A model generated the notes under the pieces. That model had not been told where the DNA came from. It saw only the letters and a program-made list of their open reading frames with translations, and did not search any database. From Promethearchaeota archaeon (lineage in GTDB: Archaea > Asgardarchaeota > Lokiarchaeia > Sigyniarchaeales > SOKP01): a DNA stretch of 53,769 bases. The translations under genes were made by a program, and so were the position numbers. The stretch is from the NCBI GenBank assembly GCA_029838195.1, contig JALGVJ010000025.1, positions 1-53,769 on the forward strand, written 5' to 3'. Positions within the stretch are counted from its first letter, which is position 1. Each line of letters begins with the position of its first letter. Of this stretch, positions 19,519 to 33,886 are shown one piece after another.

Positions 19519-21465
19519 TTAAATCTCACGAAATGGCACCTCCACGCTAAGTGCATTAATAATTGATTTATGTATTGCGTCGTTTGGGCAAATCTGATAA
19601 CATACACCGCATCTGATGCATCTATCTTGATCTATTTGCATGGTTTCCCTTCCCTCCACTTCTACTCTTCTCATGGCAGGACAGCTCAAAATGCGGCTAC
19701 ATTCATGACACATCTGGCATCCATAGACTTGATACGTGATCTCTTGATATTTTTCTCCTTGCGCTTCCAATTGCTTAATTTGACTCATGCGCCATCGATG
19801 CGCTTGTAAACCACACTCTCTTTTTATTACGATAACTTTCAGCCCATCAGTTTCCAATGCCTTTTTTATCGTGCTGGTGAGCTTTTTCGGATTATAGGAG
19901 TCTTCTACTCGCAACCATTGAACTCCCATAGCTTTACAGATGCGTTCGATGGAAAAGCCTTGTCGGAACAGAAAGCGAAGCACGTCGTCTTGATGCCCCG
20001 TCATTGCAGTCCAAGAGTTTTCAAAAATGATGAGAAGGATGTTAGAATTATAGCCCACGGCTTCTGCTAACGGGCTTAATCCGGTGTGGAAAAAGGTAGA
20101 ATCTCCGATCATCGCAAGAATTTTCTGATCAGTTTTAGTAGACATGCCGATTGCCGCACTCAAGCCTCCAGACATGCAAATAACGAGATCAGAACATTGC
20201 TGCGGTGGGAAAAAAGACATTACATAGCATCCGATGTCACCGCACACCACAGTATTGGTTAAATGGTTGGTAGCTTTTAAAATGGAATATAATGTGGCTC
20301 GTTCGGGGCAGCCCGCACAGAAGGTTGGAAACCGACTAGGAATTATGGCTTGGTAGGATTCAAATAACTTGGCAGCTATTTTCATGCGGGGATTAGACTT
20401 TTTATTAAATATTTTAGCTAAACAATTAGCGACCAGTCCCGTGGAATATTCATTATATTTGGGAAAATATTTTTGTCCTAAGATTTCTACATTTAATTTT
20501 TCCGAATGAGCAATTTCTGAAATCTTTACTTCCAAAAAAGGTTCTAATTCCTCCACCACTACCACGCGATCCAGGTCTTGCATGAAATCCAAGATTTCTT
20601 CATGATTTAAGGGATAAATCATTCCTAATTTCAACACGGGCACATCATCTAATGACAATTGATTTAGGGCTTCTAACGTGTAGCCGTATGGAATTCCGCT
20701 GGTGATGATACCTACCTTGTTCGTTCCCGGAAGAACTTTATTAATTTTCAAGGAGGGTACTTCTTCTCTTAACCGCTCGATGCGCTCATATAATCTCACG
20801 TGATTATTTATGGCATGAGGGGGCAAGGAATTAAATTTTGGAATATTCCGCACGAATTCTCCTCGTGCCTTTCCCTTGACGATGGGTCCCAGATCCACGA
20901 ATCCCCGCGAATGGGCACTTCTCGTGGACATTCGAAAATCAATTACCAAATCATACCGTTCGGAAAGATCAAAAGCCAATTTAATCCAATCCTTACATTC
21001 TTGAGGGGAATGGGGTTCAAAAGTGGGAAGATGTAACATCCATGAATAAAATCGTTCATTCTGCTCCTGATGCGAGCCTAATGAGCCTGGATCGCTTCCA
21101 ATAACCACGACCATGGCTCCTGGATTAGGCCCATTTAATGCAATAACGCTCAAGGCATCGGAGGCCACGTTCAAGCCGACGTGTTTCATGGGATTTAAAC
21201 TGCGGCAACCGGTCCAAGCCGCGCCGGCACAAGAGGAAGTTGCAACGGCTTCATTAACCGCCCATTGATGAACTAAATATTCTTTGAATTCTGGGAAATT
21301 ACGCAAGATTTGATGGAAATACTCTCCGATATCACTGGTAGGCGTGCCCGGATATTGAGAAACGTATGACACGCCCGCTTCTAGACAGCCGCGCACTAAT
21401 GCTTCATTTCCAAGCATTAAAACCCTGCCTTTTTCTTGTACAAATCTCGTATCTTTTTTTGGCAT
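19519..21465 (-). CDS. iorA: Indolepyruvate:ferredoxin oxidoreductase alpha subunit
   Basis: LGNEALVRG, YPGTP, MKHVGLNVA, FCAGCP, GDIGCY, GDSTFFHTG, C-terminal ferredoxin CIRCGVCYQICP. Confidence 0.95.
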   Translation of the reverse strand: MPKKDTRFVQEKGRVLMLGNEALVRGCLEAGVSYVSQYPGTPTSDIGEYFHQILRNFPEFKEYLVHQWAVNEAVATSSCAGAAWTGCRSLNPMKHVGLNVASDALSVIALNGPNPGAMVVVIGSDPGSLGSHQEQNERFYSWMLHLPTFEPHSPQECKDWIKLAFDLSERYDLVIDFRMSTRSAHSRGFVDLGPIVKGKARGEFVRNIPKFNSLPPHAINNHVRLYERIERLREEVPSLKINKVLPGTNKVGIITSGIPYGYTLEALNQLSLDDVPVLKLGMIYPLNHEEILDFMQDLDRVVVVEELEPFLEVKISEIAHSEKLNVEILGQKYFPKYNEYSTGLVANCLAKIFNKKSNPRMKIAAKLFESYQAIIPSRFPTFCAGCPERATLYSILKATNHLTNTVVCGDIGCYVMSFFPPQQCSDLVICMSGGLSAAIGMSTKTDQKILAMIGDSTFFHTGLSPLAEAVGYNSNILLIIFENSWTAMTGHQDDVLRFLFRQGFSIERICKAMGVQWLRVEDSYNPKKLTSTIKKALETDGLKVIVIKRECGLQAHRWRMSQIKQLEAQGEKYQEITYQVYGCQMCHECSRILSCPAMRRVEVEGRETMQIDQDRCIRCGVCYQICPNDAIHKSIINALSVEVPFREI

Positions 21466-28843: not shown

Positions 28844-28934
28844 TGCGCGAAGGGAGGATCGAACTCCCGACCTACACGGTTTACTCCCAAAATGCTGGTG
28901 TGAGCGTGTCGTCATACCACTAGACCATTCGCGC
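28844..28934 (-). tRNA. trnV: tRNA-Val(CAC) with 19-nt intron
   Basis: Reverse complement: acceptor GCGCGAA/TTCGCGC plus A discriminator, D arm GTCTAGTGGTATGAC, anticodon stem ACACG/CGTGT, T arm GGGAG-TTCGATC-CTCCC. Anticodon CAC at 28900-28902. 91 nt = 72 + 19-nt intron; no encoded CCA. Confidence 0.93.
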
Positions 28935-32059: not shown

Positions 32060-32647
32060 ATTATAAAATTTAAAATTGTCGTAGCGGGCGCAAAAAACGT
32101 GGGAAAAACATCACTCATCCGAAGATATGCCACCGGTAAATTTGAAACTTCAACATTAAGTACTATTGGTGTTGATTTTGAGACCAAAAAAATAACGGTC
32201 GATGATATGGATATTCTTTTGAGCATTTGGGATTTTGCAGGAGAGGAAAAATTTCGTATATTATTCCCATCTTATGTTTCTGGAGCCTCTGGGGCTTTAT
32301 TGCTCTACGACATCACAAATAGGGAAAGCTTATTAGATCTTCGGGATTGGATGAAGGTCATAACCTCTGTTCCGTATCCACCGAAAACAAAATTATTACT
32401 TGAAACAAAACTTGATTTAAAAAAGGATCGGAAAGTAAAGATCAAGGAAGCAAGAAAATTTCTCAATGAATTCGATTTTCAAGGGGATATCATCGGAACA
32501 TCGGCAAAAACAGGAGAAGGCGTGGAGGAAGCATTTGAATTATTAGGAAGGGAGTTATTAAAATATTCTCTCAGCGAATGCCCAAACTGTGGTAAGCCAT
32601 TTCCCTTAGAACTTAAATTTTGTCAGTATTGTGGGAAAAAAAGGTAA
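32060..32647 (+). CDS. Rab-like small GTPase with C-terminal zinc ribbon (start uncertain)
   Basis: The frame is open from 32045: KFKIVVAGAKNVGKTS (G1), STIGVDF, WDFAGEEKF, TKLD, TSAK, CPNC..CQYC. The track start (32099) lies inside the P-loop. Confidence 0.9.
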   Translation: MIKFKIVVAGAKNVGKTSLIRRYATGKFETSTLSTIGVDFETKKITVDDMDILLSIWDFAGEEKFRILFPSYVSGASGALLLYDITNRESLLDLRDWMKVITSVPYPPKTKLLLETKLDLKKDRKVKIKEARKFLNEFDFQGDIIGTSAKTGEGVEEAFELLGRELLKYSLSECPNCGKPFPLELKFCQYCGKKR

Positions 32648-32778: not shown

Positions 32779-33886
32779 ATGATTCAAAAGCATTATAACT
32801 TTCAAGAGGACATTCAAGAAATCATACGTCGTATTGAAAAAGATGGCATTTCATTCAAGGACAAGATGATTCTCGTAACGGGAGGTGCGGGATTTCTTGG
32901 TTCTTGGGTCTGTGATGTACTGGTAGCTCAAGGAGCTTATTGTATTTGTTTGGATAACTTGAGTTCTGGGCGGTTTGAGAACATTGCTCACCTGCAAGAC
33001 GAGGAGAATTTTCGGTTCATCAATCATGATATAAGCGATCCAATTTATTTTGGGTTAACGCATCACCCAAATGGCGTTTGCATAGGAGAGGTAAAAAAGA
33101 TTGACATTGTTATGCACATGGCAAGTCGGGCATCACCGTTTGAATTTCAGAAATACCCAATTGAAATCATCAAGAGCAACACGTTAGGAACAATGAATGC
33201 TTTAGAGATTGCGAAAGCACACAATGCCATATTTTTTTACACGAGTACCAGTGAAGTATATGGAAATCCGCCTCCGGAACATGTTCCAACTCCAGAGACC
33301 TATTTTGGCCATGTAAATCTTGCATGAAATCCATGCAATGAGCAGAAATCCGGTCGGTCCCAGGAGTTGTTATGACGAGTCAAAAAGAGCGGGAGAAGCA
33401 ATAATAAAGGCATATGAGTTGCAGCATGATTTAAATACAAAGATCGTAAGAATCTTTAACACGTCGGGTCCACGCATTCGCCATGGGCCGGAGTTTGGTA
33501 GAGTTATTCCCAATTTTATTTACCAAGCCCTAAATAATGAAGATCTCACGGTATTTGGGGATGGTTCACAAACGCGTTCTTTTACCTATGTTGTAGATGA
33601 GATCGAAGGCATTTTAAAAATTGTTGGGAGAAAAGAGACATTAGGAGAGGTTATTAACTTGGGGAATAACCAAGAATTTACCATTTTAGAACTTGCAAAA
33701 CTGATCATCGAGCTCACGAATTCCGAATCAAAAATTACCTTTCTACCCTTACCCATTGATGATCCTGCTCGACGCTGTCCCGTATTGGAGAAGGCAAAAA
33801 AACTCATAAATTGGGAGCCAACAACTCCATTAAAGGAGGGTTTAAGAAAAACGATAGCATGGTTTAAAGATAATGACTTCGAATGA
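32779..33886 (+). CDS. UDP-glucuronate decarboxylase-like NAD-dependent epimerase/dehydratase, interrupted by a 31-nt insert (track ORFs 32779-33327 and 33320-33886)
   Basis: TGGAGFLGS, HMASRASP and STSEVYG in ORF1; NPVGPRSCYDESKR, RIFNT.GP and GDGSQTRSF in ORF2. Removing 31 nt gives one 358-aa frame. Confidence 0.9.
33317..33347 (+). other. 31-nt structured insert; candidate BHB-type mRNA intron
   Basis: Contains the hairpin TTGCATG-AAATC-CATGCAA and is bounded by the direct repeat AAATC (33315-19, 33346-50). Excision restores GTA AAT CCG. The insert itself is clear; its identity as an intron is inferred. Confidence 0.5.

What the first reader, a model, noticed from the sequence alone, without database searches (positions are those of the whole stretch)
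33305..33357. Candidate tRNA-endonuclease (BHB-type) intron in an Asgard protein-coding gene
Seen: the conserved motif YFGHVN-PVGPRSCYDESKR is split by exactly 31 nt that add a stop and a frameshift, separating the NAD-binding half from the catalytic YxxxK. Both halves are otherwise intact. Hand folding gives an inner helix UC-UUGCAUG/CAUGCAA-(U)-GA (33318-26/33332-41), a 3-nt bulge AAA (33315-17), a central helix AUGU/GCAG (3 of 4 pairs, one G-U, one A.G mismatch), a second AAA (33346-48) in a loop AAAUCC, and an exon-exon helix UUGGCC/GGUCGG (three G-U pairs). Cutting after the second nucleotide of each AAA, the EndA rule, removes 33317-33347 and restores GUA AAU CCG exactly, giving 358 aa. 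The geometry parallels the tRNA-Val intron in this window (3' loop AAACC versus AAAUCC). Known: BHB introns in mRNA occur in crenarchaeal cbf5; I know of none described in Asgard metabolic genes. Inference: EndA/RtcB-dependent mRNA splicing, possibly controlling nucleotide-sugar synthesis. Alternatives: (1) a templated or slippage insertion, since the insert resembles copies of the local CATGTAAATC; (2) a mobile-element footprint with a 5-bp AAATC duplication; (3) a split enzyme restarting at ATG 33338; (4) an assembly error.
Basis: partly seen in the sequence, partly recalled or inferred. Interest (0 to 1): 0.88.

Follow-up and report, generated by a model that had tools for sequence, protein, structure and literature searches.

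The report
tRNA-type intron in Asgard sugar gene
A 31-base insert that breaks a sugar-nucleotide enzyme gene of an Asgard archaeon is most likely an intron of the kind normally cut out of tRNAs; it sits at the same codon in 14 related genomes, which suggests these close relatives of eukaryotes splice some messenger RNAs.

Summary
A UDP-glucuronate-decarboxylase (UXS) gene at 32779-33886 is interrupted by 31 nt (33317-33347) carrying a stop and a frameshift.

It is not an assembly error. Contigs from two independent public studies bridge it without a difference. Thirteen other genomes, in four genera of the same Asgard (Promethearchaeota) family, carry a 30-31 nt insert at exactly the same codon, while about 115 relatives lack it precisely.

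All 14 inserts fold into one relaxed bulge-helix-bulge, supported by compensatory base changes. Cutting after the second nucleotide of each bulge restores Val-Asn-Pro in every allele.

- Both exons are under strong purifying selection (dN/dS 0.1 or less where measurable).
- Six alleles have no start codon for the second half.
- Synonymous codons flanking the insert are chosen to build the exon-intron helices only in insert-bearing alleles.
- The genome encodes an alpha/beta EndA pair and RtcB.
- I verified the same kind of insert in pyrG, rpl11 and elp3 of this genome.

No RNA data were available, so splicing is inferred, not shown.

In print, coding-sequence introns of this type are known only for crenarchaeal cbf5. 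This scan has flagged similar cases elsewhere, including in this genome.

The parts
32779..33316 (+). Exon 1 of the UXS-type UDP-glucuronate decarboxylase gene. It holds the NAD-binding Rossmann half and ends after the first base of the Asn codon.
   Evidence: ORF and translation. Pfam Epimerase profile positions 1-126. Orthologues about 355-365 aa long and uninterrupted.
33317..33347 (+). 31-nt intron. It contains the in-frame stop TGA at 33325-27 and shifts the frame.
   Evidence: The boundary is fixed by alignment to intron-free orthologues and by 13 other alleles with a 30-31 nt insert at the same site. Unique in the genome. Bridged by contigs of two studies.
33348..33886 (+). Exon 2, the catalytic YxxxK half and C-terminal domain, including the stop codon.
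   Evidence: Pfam Epimerase profile positions 134-240. Human UXS1 structures 2B69 and 4GLL match at E about 1e-46.
33311..33314 (+). Central helix H, 5' strand (exon). It pairs with 33342-33345.
   Evidence: Three of 4 pairs form in G000. C-G in 13 alleles becomes U-A in G000, a change on both sides.
33315..33317 (+). 5' three-nucleotide bulge. The predicted cut lies between 33316 and 33317.
   Evidence: It is a strict bulge in all 14 alleles, because the opposite strand runs straight from h' into H. The cut rule restores the conserved junction.
33318..33341 (+). Intron hairpin h'. 33318-19 pair with 33340-41, U33339 is bulged, 33320-26 pair with 33332-38, and the loop is 33327-31.
   Evidence: The first five pairs are conserved in relatives, with G-C changing to A-U in five alleles.
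33342..33345 (+). Central helix H, 3' strand (intron).
33346..33348 (+). 3' three-nucleotide loop. The predicted cut lies between 33347 and 33348. It faces unpaired C33310 (and A33311), so it is an internal loop rather than a pure bulge.
   Evidence: The same relaxed geometry is seen in all alleles.
33298..33308 (+). 5' strands of the exon-exon helices. The outer helix is 33298-303 and h is 33307-08.
   Evidence: RNAalifold consensus. These pairs form in 96% of cells in intron-bearing alleles against 71% in intron-free ones.
33350..33358 (+). 3' strands of the exon-exon helices. h is 33350-51 and the outer helix is 33353-58.
28844..28934 (-). tRNA-Val(CAC) gene with an intron of about 19 nt. 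It is a local comparator substrate of the same splicing enzyme.
   Evidence: Rfam tRNA model, 55.7 bits, with 21 inserted positions in the anticodon loop. Sequence read.

Best explanation
The 31 nt at 33317-33347 are a bulge-helix-bulge (BHB) intron in the pre-mRNA of a UXS-type UDP-glucuronate decarboxylase.

In the transcript, exon 1 and the 3' part of the intron form a 3-4 bp central helix. It is flanked by a strict 3-nt bulge on the 5' side and a 3-nt loop on the 3' side. An intron hairpin and exon-exon helices clamp the two sides.

The host's two-subunit (alpha/beta) splicing endonuclease EndA would cut after the second nucleotide of each bulge. RtcB would then join the exons, giving a 358-aa enzyme that reads ...GHV-N-PVGPR..., and the intron would leave as a small, probably circular, RNA. 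Unspliced mRNA yields only a 182-aa N-terminal fragment.

Shown here: the insert is real DNA; it is conserved at the same site in 14 genomes of 4 genera; the structure covaries; the cut rule restores the conserved codons; both exons are under purifying selection; the enzymes are encoded.

Inferred: cleavage, ligation and the circular product.
For: (1) The insert is real. Contigs of two separate studies bridge 33047-33565 and 33159-33616 with no differences or gaps.

(2) It is conserved. Of 129 family genomes with the orthologue, 14 have the second half in an open frame of only about 183-193 aa. Fetching those loci shows a 30-31 nt insert at exactly the same codon, in genera g1, g2, g6 and g11. 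The same-genus relative G001 has a 30-nt, in-frame version with a TAA stop.

(3) The structure covaries.
- 91% of cells pair, against 38-57% when partners are slid by 1-3 columns.
- Three pairs change on both sides: C-G to U-A in H, G-C to A-U in h', and G-C to A-U in h.
- The covariation score is reached by 1 of 500 shuffles.
- RNAalifold finds the same helices on its own, plus a 6-bp outer exon-exon helix.

(4) Cutting after the second nucleotide of both bulges gives Val-Asn-Pro in all 14 alleles. This is the rule reported for cbf5 (PMC2738675).

(5) The gene is functional.
- No other stop occurs in the 179 + 95 codons examined in any allele.
- dN is 0.04-0.2 while dS is saturated, so dN/dS is 0.1 or less for both exons where dS could be computed.
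- The split gene is the only close orthologue in G000 and, at E 1e-60 or better, the only one in 13 of the 14 genomes.

(6) The exons are co-adapted to the intron. Intron-bearing alleles use GGG, CAC, GTA, AAC, GTA and GGT at the flanking codons. Intron-free alleles mostly use GGA/T, CAT, GTN, AAT, GTT and GGA. Third-position entropy drops only at the structural codons (Mann-Whitney p = 0.005). Exon-exon pairs form in 121 of 126 cells against 127 of 180.

(7) The machinery is present.
- An EndA paralogue carrying the Tyr, His and Lys residues, and a second paralogue lacking the His; both have N- and C-terminal domains.
- A full-length RtcB.
- Asgard archaea are reported to have the broad-specificity (alpha-beta)2 enzyme (PMC5829648).

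(8) It is not alone in this genome. pyrG, rpl11 and elp3 carry 31-, 28- and 31-nt inserts, and removing each by the same rule restores conserved motifs.
Against: - There is no RNA evidence of any kind. No RNA run holding this sequence was listed.
- The motif is relaxed, not canonical. H has only 3 of 4 pairs in G000 and in 9 other alleles.
- The 3' bulge faces one or two unpaired nucleotides.
- The G000 fold alone is not better than shuffled sequence.
- The specificity of this organism's EndA is untested.
- The shared synonymous codons in the flanks could partly reflect spread of intron plus flanks by recombination rather than selection.
- My own motif-plus-reading-frame scan of the genome showed no excess over controls, so it gives no independent count of such introns.
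Confidence: 0.85

Rival explanations
1. Split enzyme: the insert permanently divides the gene. The two halves are made as separate polypeptides that assemble, or only the N-terminal half is used.
For: Both halves are intact and conserved. In G000 an in-frame TTG and ATG lie inside the insert, and eight alleles have an in-frame TTG.
Against: Six of 14 alleles (G001, G130, G128, G124, G119, G108) have no ATG, GTG or TTG between the preceding in-frame stop and exon 2. Exon 2 is nonetheless under strong purifying selection in them. The cut falls inside the conserved GHVNPVGPR motif, between the Rossmann half and the catalytic Tyr/Lys. The model does not explain covarying helices or co-adapted synonymous codons.
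Confidence: 0.04
2. Translational bypass or recoding: the ribosome hops over the 30-31 nt, as in phage T4 gene 60 or the mitochondrial 'byp' elements, or it combines stop read-through with a frameshift.
For: The insert has a hairpin with a stop codon four codons after the Val codon in every allele. In G000 an AAU codon occurs at both ends of the insert.
Against: Matching take-off and landing codons that would give Val-Asn-Pro exist only in G000. In the other 13 alleles the triplet before the Pro codon is UAC or UAU. A GUA-to-GUA hop would give Val-Tyr-Pro, and it is impossible where the triplet is GCA. Read-through would insert about 10 residues into the catalytic core. The exon-intron helix H and its compensatory change have no role in bypassing.
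Confidence: 0.03
3. Inactivated gene: the insert is a neutral or disabling insertion in a decaying pseudogene, arising from slippage, templated insertion or a mobile-element footprint.
For: The insert brings a stop and a frameshift. In G000 a 5-nt direct repeat flanks it.
Against: - The insert persists at the same site in four genera while synonymous sites elsewhere are saturated.
- There are no secondary lesions, and dN/dS is 0.1 or less.
- No flanking repeat exists in the other alleles.
- The sequence is unique in the genome.
- A truly damaged orthologue looks different: G012 has lost the GxxGxxG region.
Confidence: 0.03
4. The insert is removed from the RNA, but by something other than EndA/RtcB, such as an unknown nuclease and ligase or a guide-RNA-dependent process.
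For: The motif is relaxed, and EndA cleavage was not tested.
Against: The geometry (3-nt bulges, a 4-position central helix, cuts after the second bulge nucleotide) is exactly the EndA rule. It also holds for three other genes and for a tRNA in the same genome. No other candidate machinery is indicated.
Confidence: 0.05

Closest known systems
BHB intron of the cbf5 pre-mRNA in Crenarchaeota (Watanabe 2002; Yoshinari 2006; Yokobori 2009, PMC2738675)
   Same: - A short intron inside a coding sequence, at a catalytic motif.
- An 'unconventional' (relaxed) BHB.
- Cleavage between the second and third bulge nucleotides.
- A host with a hetero-oligomeric EndA.
- Lineage-specific presence and precise loss.
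   Different: A different gene (a sugar-nucleotide decarboxylase, not an RNA-modifying enzyme) and a different phylum (Asgard/Promethearchaeota). The distribution is much patchier: 14 of 129 genomes, interleaved with intron-free alleles inside each genus. Splicing of cbf5 was shown experimentally; here it is only inferred.
tRNA introns of Asgard archaea, including the tRNA-Val(CAC) intron in this window (28844-28934)
   Same: The same presumed enzyme pair, similar length (about 19-31 nt), A-rich 3-nt bulges, and a relaxed 3' side. Asgard tRNA genes are reported to be heavily interrupted (10.64898/2026.10.13.758758).
   Different: The substrate is an mRNA, so half of the motif must be built from codons. 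That need is met by choice of synonymous codons. Splicing decides whether a protein is made at all.
BHB intron in the 5' UTR of Haloferax volcanii HVO_1309 (PMC7714728)
   Same: An EndA substrate in an mRNA. It was confirmed there by circular-RNA sequencing and in vitro cleavage.
   Different: That intron lies in the untranslated leader and does not interrupt the reading frame.
Unconventional HAC1/XBP1 mRNA splicing in eukaryotes (own knowledge, not tested here)
   Same: Spliceosome-independent removal of a short intron from an mRNA. It changes the reading frame, and the exons are joined by a tRNA ligase (RtcB in animals).
   Different: The nuclease there is IRE1, not the tRNA endonuclease. 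The recognised structure is a pair of stem-loops.

Membership tests
Archaeal BHB (EndA-type) pre-mRNA intron | Strict canonical hBHBh' motif: a 4-bp central helix, two pure 3-nt bulges, and both outer helices directly adjoining. | tested here: not met
   The 5' bulge is strict. H has 4 of 4 pairs in only 4 alleles (G001, G071, G065, G061) and 3 of 4 in the other 10, G000 included. The 3' trinucleotide faces 1-2 unpaired nucleotides.
Archaeal BHB (EndA-type) pre-mRNA intron | Relaxed motif of the kind accepted by (alpha-beta)2 EndA: a central helix, at least one true bulge, and a flanking helix. | tested here: met
   All 14 alleles have a strict 5' bulge, 3-4 H pairs, and h' of 5 or more pairs (2 + 7 in G000). 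91% of cells pair, against 38-57% in slid controls. cbf5 introns are likewise 'unconventional'.
Archaeal BHB (EndA-type) pre-mRNA intron | Cutting after the second nucleotide of each bulge restores the conserved reading frame. | tested here: met
   It gives Val-Asn-Pro and an open frame in 14 of 14 alleles.
Archaeal BHB (EndA-type) pre-mRNA intron | The helices are maintained by compensatory change across lineages. | tested here: met
   Three pairs change on both sides in the 12-pair core. Four do in the RNAalifold structure. Synonymous codons are co-adapted only in intron-bearing alleles.
Archaeal BHB (EndA-type) pre-mRNA intron | The host encodes a splicing endonuclease of the broad-specificity two-subunit type and an RtcB ligase. 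| tested here: met
   Two full-length EndA paralogues are present, one with the Tyr/His/Lys residues and one lacking the His. RtcB is present. Presence of the specificity loop (L1) and actual specificity were not tested.
Archaeal BHB (EndA-type) pre-mRNA intron | The spliced mRNA and excised (circular) intron are observed. | not testable with these tools
   No RNA run was listed. No spliced-form contig or protein was found.
Programmed translational bypass (T4 gene 60 type) | Matching take-off and landing codons flank the bypassed segment. | tested here: not met
   They are present only in G000 and absent in 13 of 14 alleles.
Naturally split gene (two polypeptides) | The second half has its own start codon. 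| tested here: not met
   Six of 14 alleles have no ATG, GTG or TTG in frame upstream of exon 2.
Mobile-element footprint | A target-site duplication and other copies in the genome. | tested here: not met
   The 5-nt repeat occurs only in G000. There is no other copy in the 4.5-Mb genome. A 16-nt match at 20576-20591 lies inside an intact 648-aa ORF and is a chance match.

The most novel reading that the evidence does not exclude
This intron is one of many. Members of this Asgard family may routinely depend on EndA/RtcB splicing of messenger RNAs, including essential ones (rpl11, pyrG and elp3 in this genome).

On this reading, introns are repeatedly lost precisely or gained within genera, and the flanking codons evolve to build the splice motif. 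That would be a true exon-intron gene architecture, with spliceosome-independent mRNA splicing, in the closest prokaryotic relatives of eukaryotes. Splicing could also serve as an expression switch, since unspliced mRNA ends at a stop codon held at a fixed position in all 14 alleles.
Probability: 0.6. Interest if true: 0.9.

Novelty: new member of a known kind. Interest (0 to 1): 0.8.

Why it matters
In the papers I could search, introns of the tRNA type inside a coding sequence are documented for one archaeal gene, cbf5 of Crenarchaeota. A 2020 paper states this explicitly (PMC7714728).

A second, unrelated gene carrying such an intron in Asgard archaea has several consequences.
- mRNA splicing by the tRNA machinery would not be a crenarchaeal oddity. 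It would exist in the lineage that gave rise to eukaryotes, where RtcB-dependent mRNA splicing (XBP1) still occurs.
- Annotation is affected. These genes are called as two fragments or as pseudogenes, so Asgard metabolic reconstructions undercount intact genes.
- The 14 alleles, with intron-free sisters in the same genera, form a natural experiment. They can be used to study intron loss and gain and how coding sequence is constrained by a splice motif.
- The prediction is directly testable with two recombinant proteins and a 90-nt transcript.

Tried and rejected
- RNA evidence: no RNA holder was listed. Only DNA-derived contigs could be laid.
- Spliced-form proteins: a search of longer proteins found no full-length protein 90% or more identical to G000. 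The best match to any intron-bearing allele was 95.5%, so no candidate cDNA-derived product turned up.
- Spliced-junction pattern in metagenome contigs: 52 hits, all from unrelated organisms' UXS genes. The best nucleotide identity to any intron-bearing allele was 68%.
- Genome-wide census by motif plus reading-frame phase (H of 3 or more pairs, h' of 2 or more, both flanking frames open for 70 or more codons). Correct-phase hits were no more frequent than wrong-phase controls at any stringency or length class. Ordinary gene-gene junctions swamp the signal, so a homology-based census is needed.
- A regular-expression search for the H and h' sequence motifs gave only noise.
- blastn-short of the insert against the genome found no second copy.
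- ARAGORN at default settings found no tRNA in the window. With introns allowed it gave noisy calls, some with implausible introns of about 800-2400 nt, so I did not use it to characterise tRNA introns.
- A single-sequence fold of G000 is not informative.
- Rejected readings: assembly error; slippage or templated duplication of the local sequence (the insert is conserved in four genera); a footprint with target-site duplication (seen only in G000); ribosomal hopping; a split enzyme.

Full report
**What is in the window.**
- The plus-strand frame opening at ATG 32779 encodes the NAD-binding half of a short-chain dehydrogenase/epimerase. It reads ...TYFGHVNLA and stops at 33325-27.
- A second frame continues from the insert with ...NPVGPRSCYDESKR and runs to 33886.
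- Pfam places Epimerase profile positions 1-126 on the first piece and 134-240 on the second.
- The second piece matches human UDP-glucuronate decarboxylase UXS1 (2B69, 4GLL) at E about 1e-46.
- The nearest database proteins, 80-87% identical, are uninterrupted proteins of about 356 aa. They are named UDP-glucuronic acid decarboxylase and come from Promethearchaeota/Promethearchaeia (Asgard) assemblies.
- Removing 33317-33347 gives one 358-aa frame reading ...TYFGHVNPVGPR....

**Is the insert real DNA?**
- Logan contigs from two different studies, a sediment and a hydrothermal-vent metagenome, cover 33047-33565 and 33159-33616 with no differing letter and no gap. One of them may be the sample of origin.
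- The independent evidence is comparative. The same-genus genome G001 has a 30-nt insert at exactly the same place.
- A search of all 135 genomes of the family found the orthologue in 129. In 14 of these, including G000, the second half lies in an open frame of only 183-193 aa.
- Fetching those loci showed a 30-31 nt insert between the first and second base of the same Asn codon in every one.
- The 14 genomes belong to four genera: 2 of 2 in the window's own genus, and 5 of 53, 2 of 10 and 5 of 41 in three others.
- In the three other families of the order, 15 of the 16 genomes searched have the orthologue uninterrupted; the sixteenth gave only a contig-end fragment.

**The structure.** Aligned, the 14 sequences share one architecture, read 5' to 3':
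- an outer exon-exon helix;
- a short helix h (GGG with CCC in most alleles);
- one unpaired C;
- the central helix H (ACGU with GCGU or GCGC in most; AUGU with GCAG in G000);
- a strict 3-nt bulge (AAA or AAU);
- an intron hairpin h' whose first five pairs are conserved (UCUUG with CAAGA);
- then, on the return strand, a trinucleotide (AUA, or AAA in G000) before exon 2.

Counting pairs for the 12-pair core gives the following.
- 91% of cells are paired, against 38-57% when the 3' partners are slid by 1-3 columns.
- Three pairs have changes on both sides: C-G to U-A in H (G000), G-C to A-U in h' (five alleles of one genus), and G-C to A-U in h (G001).
- U.G becomes U-A in three alleles.
- Only 1 of 500 shuffles reaches the covariation score.

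RNAalifold, given only the alignment, returns the same helices and adds a 6-bp outer exon-exon helix. That helix has a further compensatory A-U to G-C change.

The motif is relaxed rather than canonical. The pair of H next to the 3' loop is A-U in four alleles but A.C or A.G in ten. The 3' trinucleotide faces one or two unpaired bases. In G000 alone the fold is no better than shuffled sequence. A recent preprint cautions that relaxed BHB-like shapes are common by chance. For these reasons I rest the case on the comparison, not on the G000 fold.

**The cut rule.** EndA cuts between the second and third nucleotide of each bulge, and the cbf5 work found its exon-intron borders consistent with this (PMC2738675). 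Applied here it removes 33317-33347 in G000. In all 14 alleles it yields GUA-AAY-CCN, that is Val-Asn-Pro, the sequence of every intron-free orthologue.

**Is the gene alive?**
- None of the 14 alleles has any other stop in the 179 codons before or the 95 codons after the insert.
- Between alleles of different genera dN is 0.04-0.2. dS is saturated (0.9 to above 2, or not computable), so dN/dS is at most about 0.1 for each exon.
- The insert has therefore persisted through complete turnover of synonymous sites, while both halves stayed under strong constraint.
- G000 has no second close copy; the next-best match is 40% identical.
- A truly damaged orthologue exists for contrast. G012 has lost the GxxGxxG region and has a frameshift.

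**Exon co-adaptation.**
- At the flanking codons whose third bases lie in the helices or bulge, intron-bearing alleles use GGG (11 of 14), CAC (13), GTA (14), AAC (12), GTA (13) and GGT (12).
- The 20 intron-free alleles examined use G at that Gly position once, CAC twice, GTA 9 times, AAC 3 times, GTA 5 times and GGT 9 times.
- Third-position entropy is lower in intron-bearing alleles specifically at these codons, not across the other 53 codons around them (Mann-Whitney p = 0.005).
- The nine exon-exon pairs form in 121 of 126 cells with the intron and in 127 of 180 without it.
- Either selection keeps the splice motif, or intron and flanks spread together by recombination. Both readings treat the insert as a functional unit.

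**Distribution.** In a maximum-likelihood tree of the exons, alleles group by genus. Intron-bearing and intron-free alleles are interleaved inside each genus, and at least 7 changes of state are needed. The inserts resemble one another across genera. The simplest reading is an old intron with repeated precise losses, as proposed for cbf5, but lateral spread is not excluded.

**Rivals.**
- A split enzyme is contradicted. Six alleles have no ATG, GTG or TTG in frame before exon 2.
- Ribosomal hopping needs matching take-off and landing codons. These exist only in G000, and in the other alleles hopping would give the wrong residue or is impossible.
- A mobile-element footprint is contradicted. 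The 5-nt repeat is peculiar to G000, and the insert has no other copy in the genome.
- A 16-nt match elsewhere in the window lies inside an intact ORF.

**Machinery and company.**
- The genome encodes an EndA paralogue of 202 aa with the catalytic Tyr, His and Lys at the expected spacing, read by eye from the sequence.
- A 199-aa paralogue lacks the His. Both have the N- and C-terminal endonuclease domains.
- A full-length RtcB is present.
- This fits the (alpha-beta)2 enzyme with broad specificity reported for Asgard archaea (PMC5829648).
- Following leads from earlier notes of this scan on the same genome, I checked three other genes myself.
  - pyrG is split by 31 nt (C56:72469-72499).
  - rpl11 is split by 28 nt (C47:5651-5678, minus strand).
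  - elp3 is split by 31 nt (C23:59892-59922, minus strand).
- In each, a central helix with 3-nt bulges can be drawn, and the same cut rule restores a conserved motif and a single frame.
- A ribosomal protein gene interrupted in this way argues that the cell really does splice such inserts.

**What is missing.**
- No RNA run was listed, and no spliced-form contig or protein was found.
- My genome-wide scan by motif and frame failed to rise above its controls.
- Splicing is therefore inferred.

**Comparison with what is known.**
- It works like, and meets the relaxed definition of, the cbf5 pre-mRNA intron of Crenarchaeota.
- It fails the strict canonical BHB definition.
- A 2020 paper states that cbf5 was then the only BHB intron reported in an archaeal mRNA besides the Haloferax 5' UTR case it describes (PMC7714728).
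- My searches found no paper describing such introns in Asgard protein genes.
- This scan has noted similar introns in other Asgard and DPANN genomes and in this genome. I treat those notes as leads only.

**Verdict.** This is a new member of a known kind. It is well supported comparatively, awaits RNA confirmation, and is of high interest because of where it occurs.

Noticed in passing
G000 C56:72469-72499 (+), C47:5651-5678 (-), C23:59892-59922 (-): pyrG, rpl11 and elp3 of the same genome are each split by a 28-31 nt insert. Removing it by the same bulge rule restores conserved motifs (DQDFGTYERF, TGGSASGGPP, GHDVDKIELIVMGGT).
   Followed up: partly
window 28844-28934 (-): tRNA-Val(CAC) with an intron of about 19 nt. 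ARAGORN misses it at default settings. Its 3' side is also relaxed, with AAA followed by unpaired C residues before the anticodon stem resumes.
   Followed up: partly
all 14 intron-bearing alleles (window 33325-33327; L004, L035-L046): In every allele the unspliced exon-1 frame ends at a stop (TGA, TAA or TAG) exactly four codons after the Val codon, near the top of the intron hairpin. This may be chance in an AT-rich loop, or a safeguard that ends translation of unspliced mRNA.
   Followed up: no
L007 about 1060-1150 (G012 orthologue): This intron-free orthologue lacks about 28 codons covering the GxxGxxG NAD-binding motif and changes frame. It is probably a real pseudogene or an assembly fault.
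   Followed up: partly
G000 C53:22036-22353 (-): A 106-aa fragment closely similar to part of the EndA beta subunit on C8. It may be a duplicate, a strain variant, or part of the genome's 7.9% estimated contamination.
   Followed up: no
window 32099-32647 (+): The gene just upstream looks like a Ras/Rab-type small GTPase with a C-terminal CxxC...CxxC zinc-ribbon tail. This is read from the translation only; no family search was run.
   Followed up: no
G000 C4:57, C53:288, C78:5: A 41-nt sequence, identical in two copies and differing by one base in the third, recurs within a few hundred bases of three contig ends. It is probably part of a repeat that broke the assembly.
   Followed up: no
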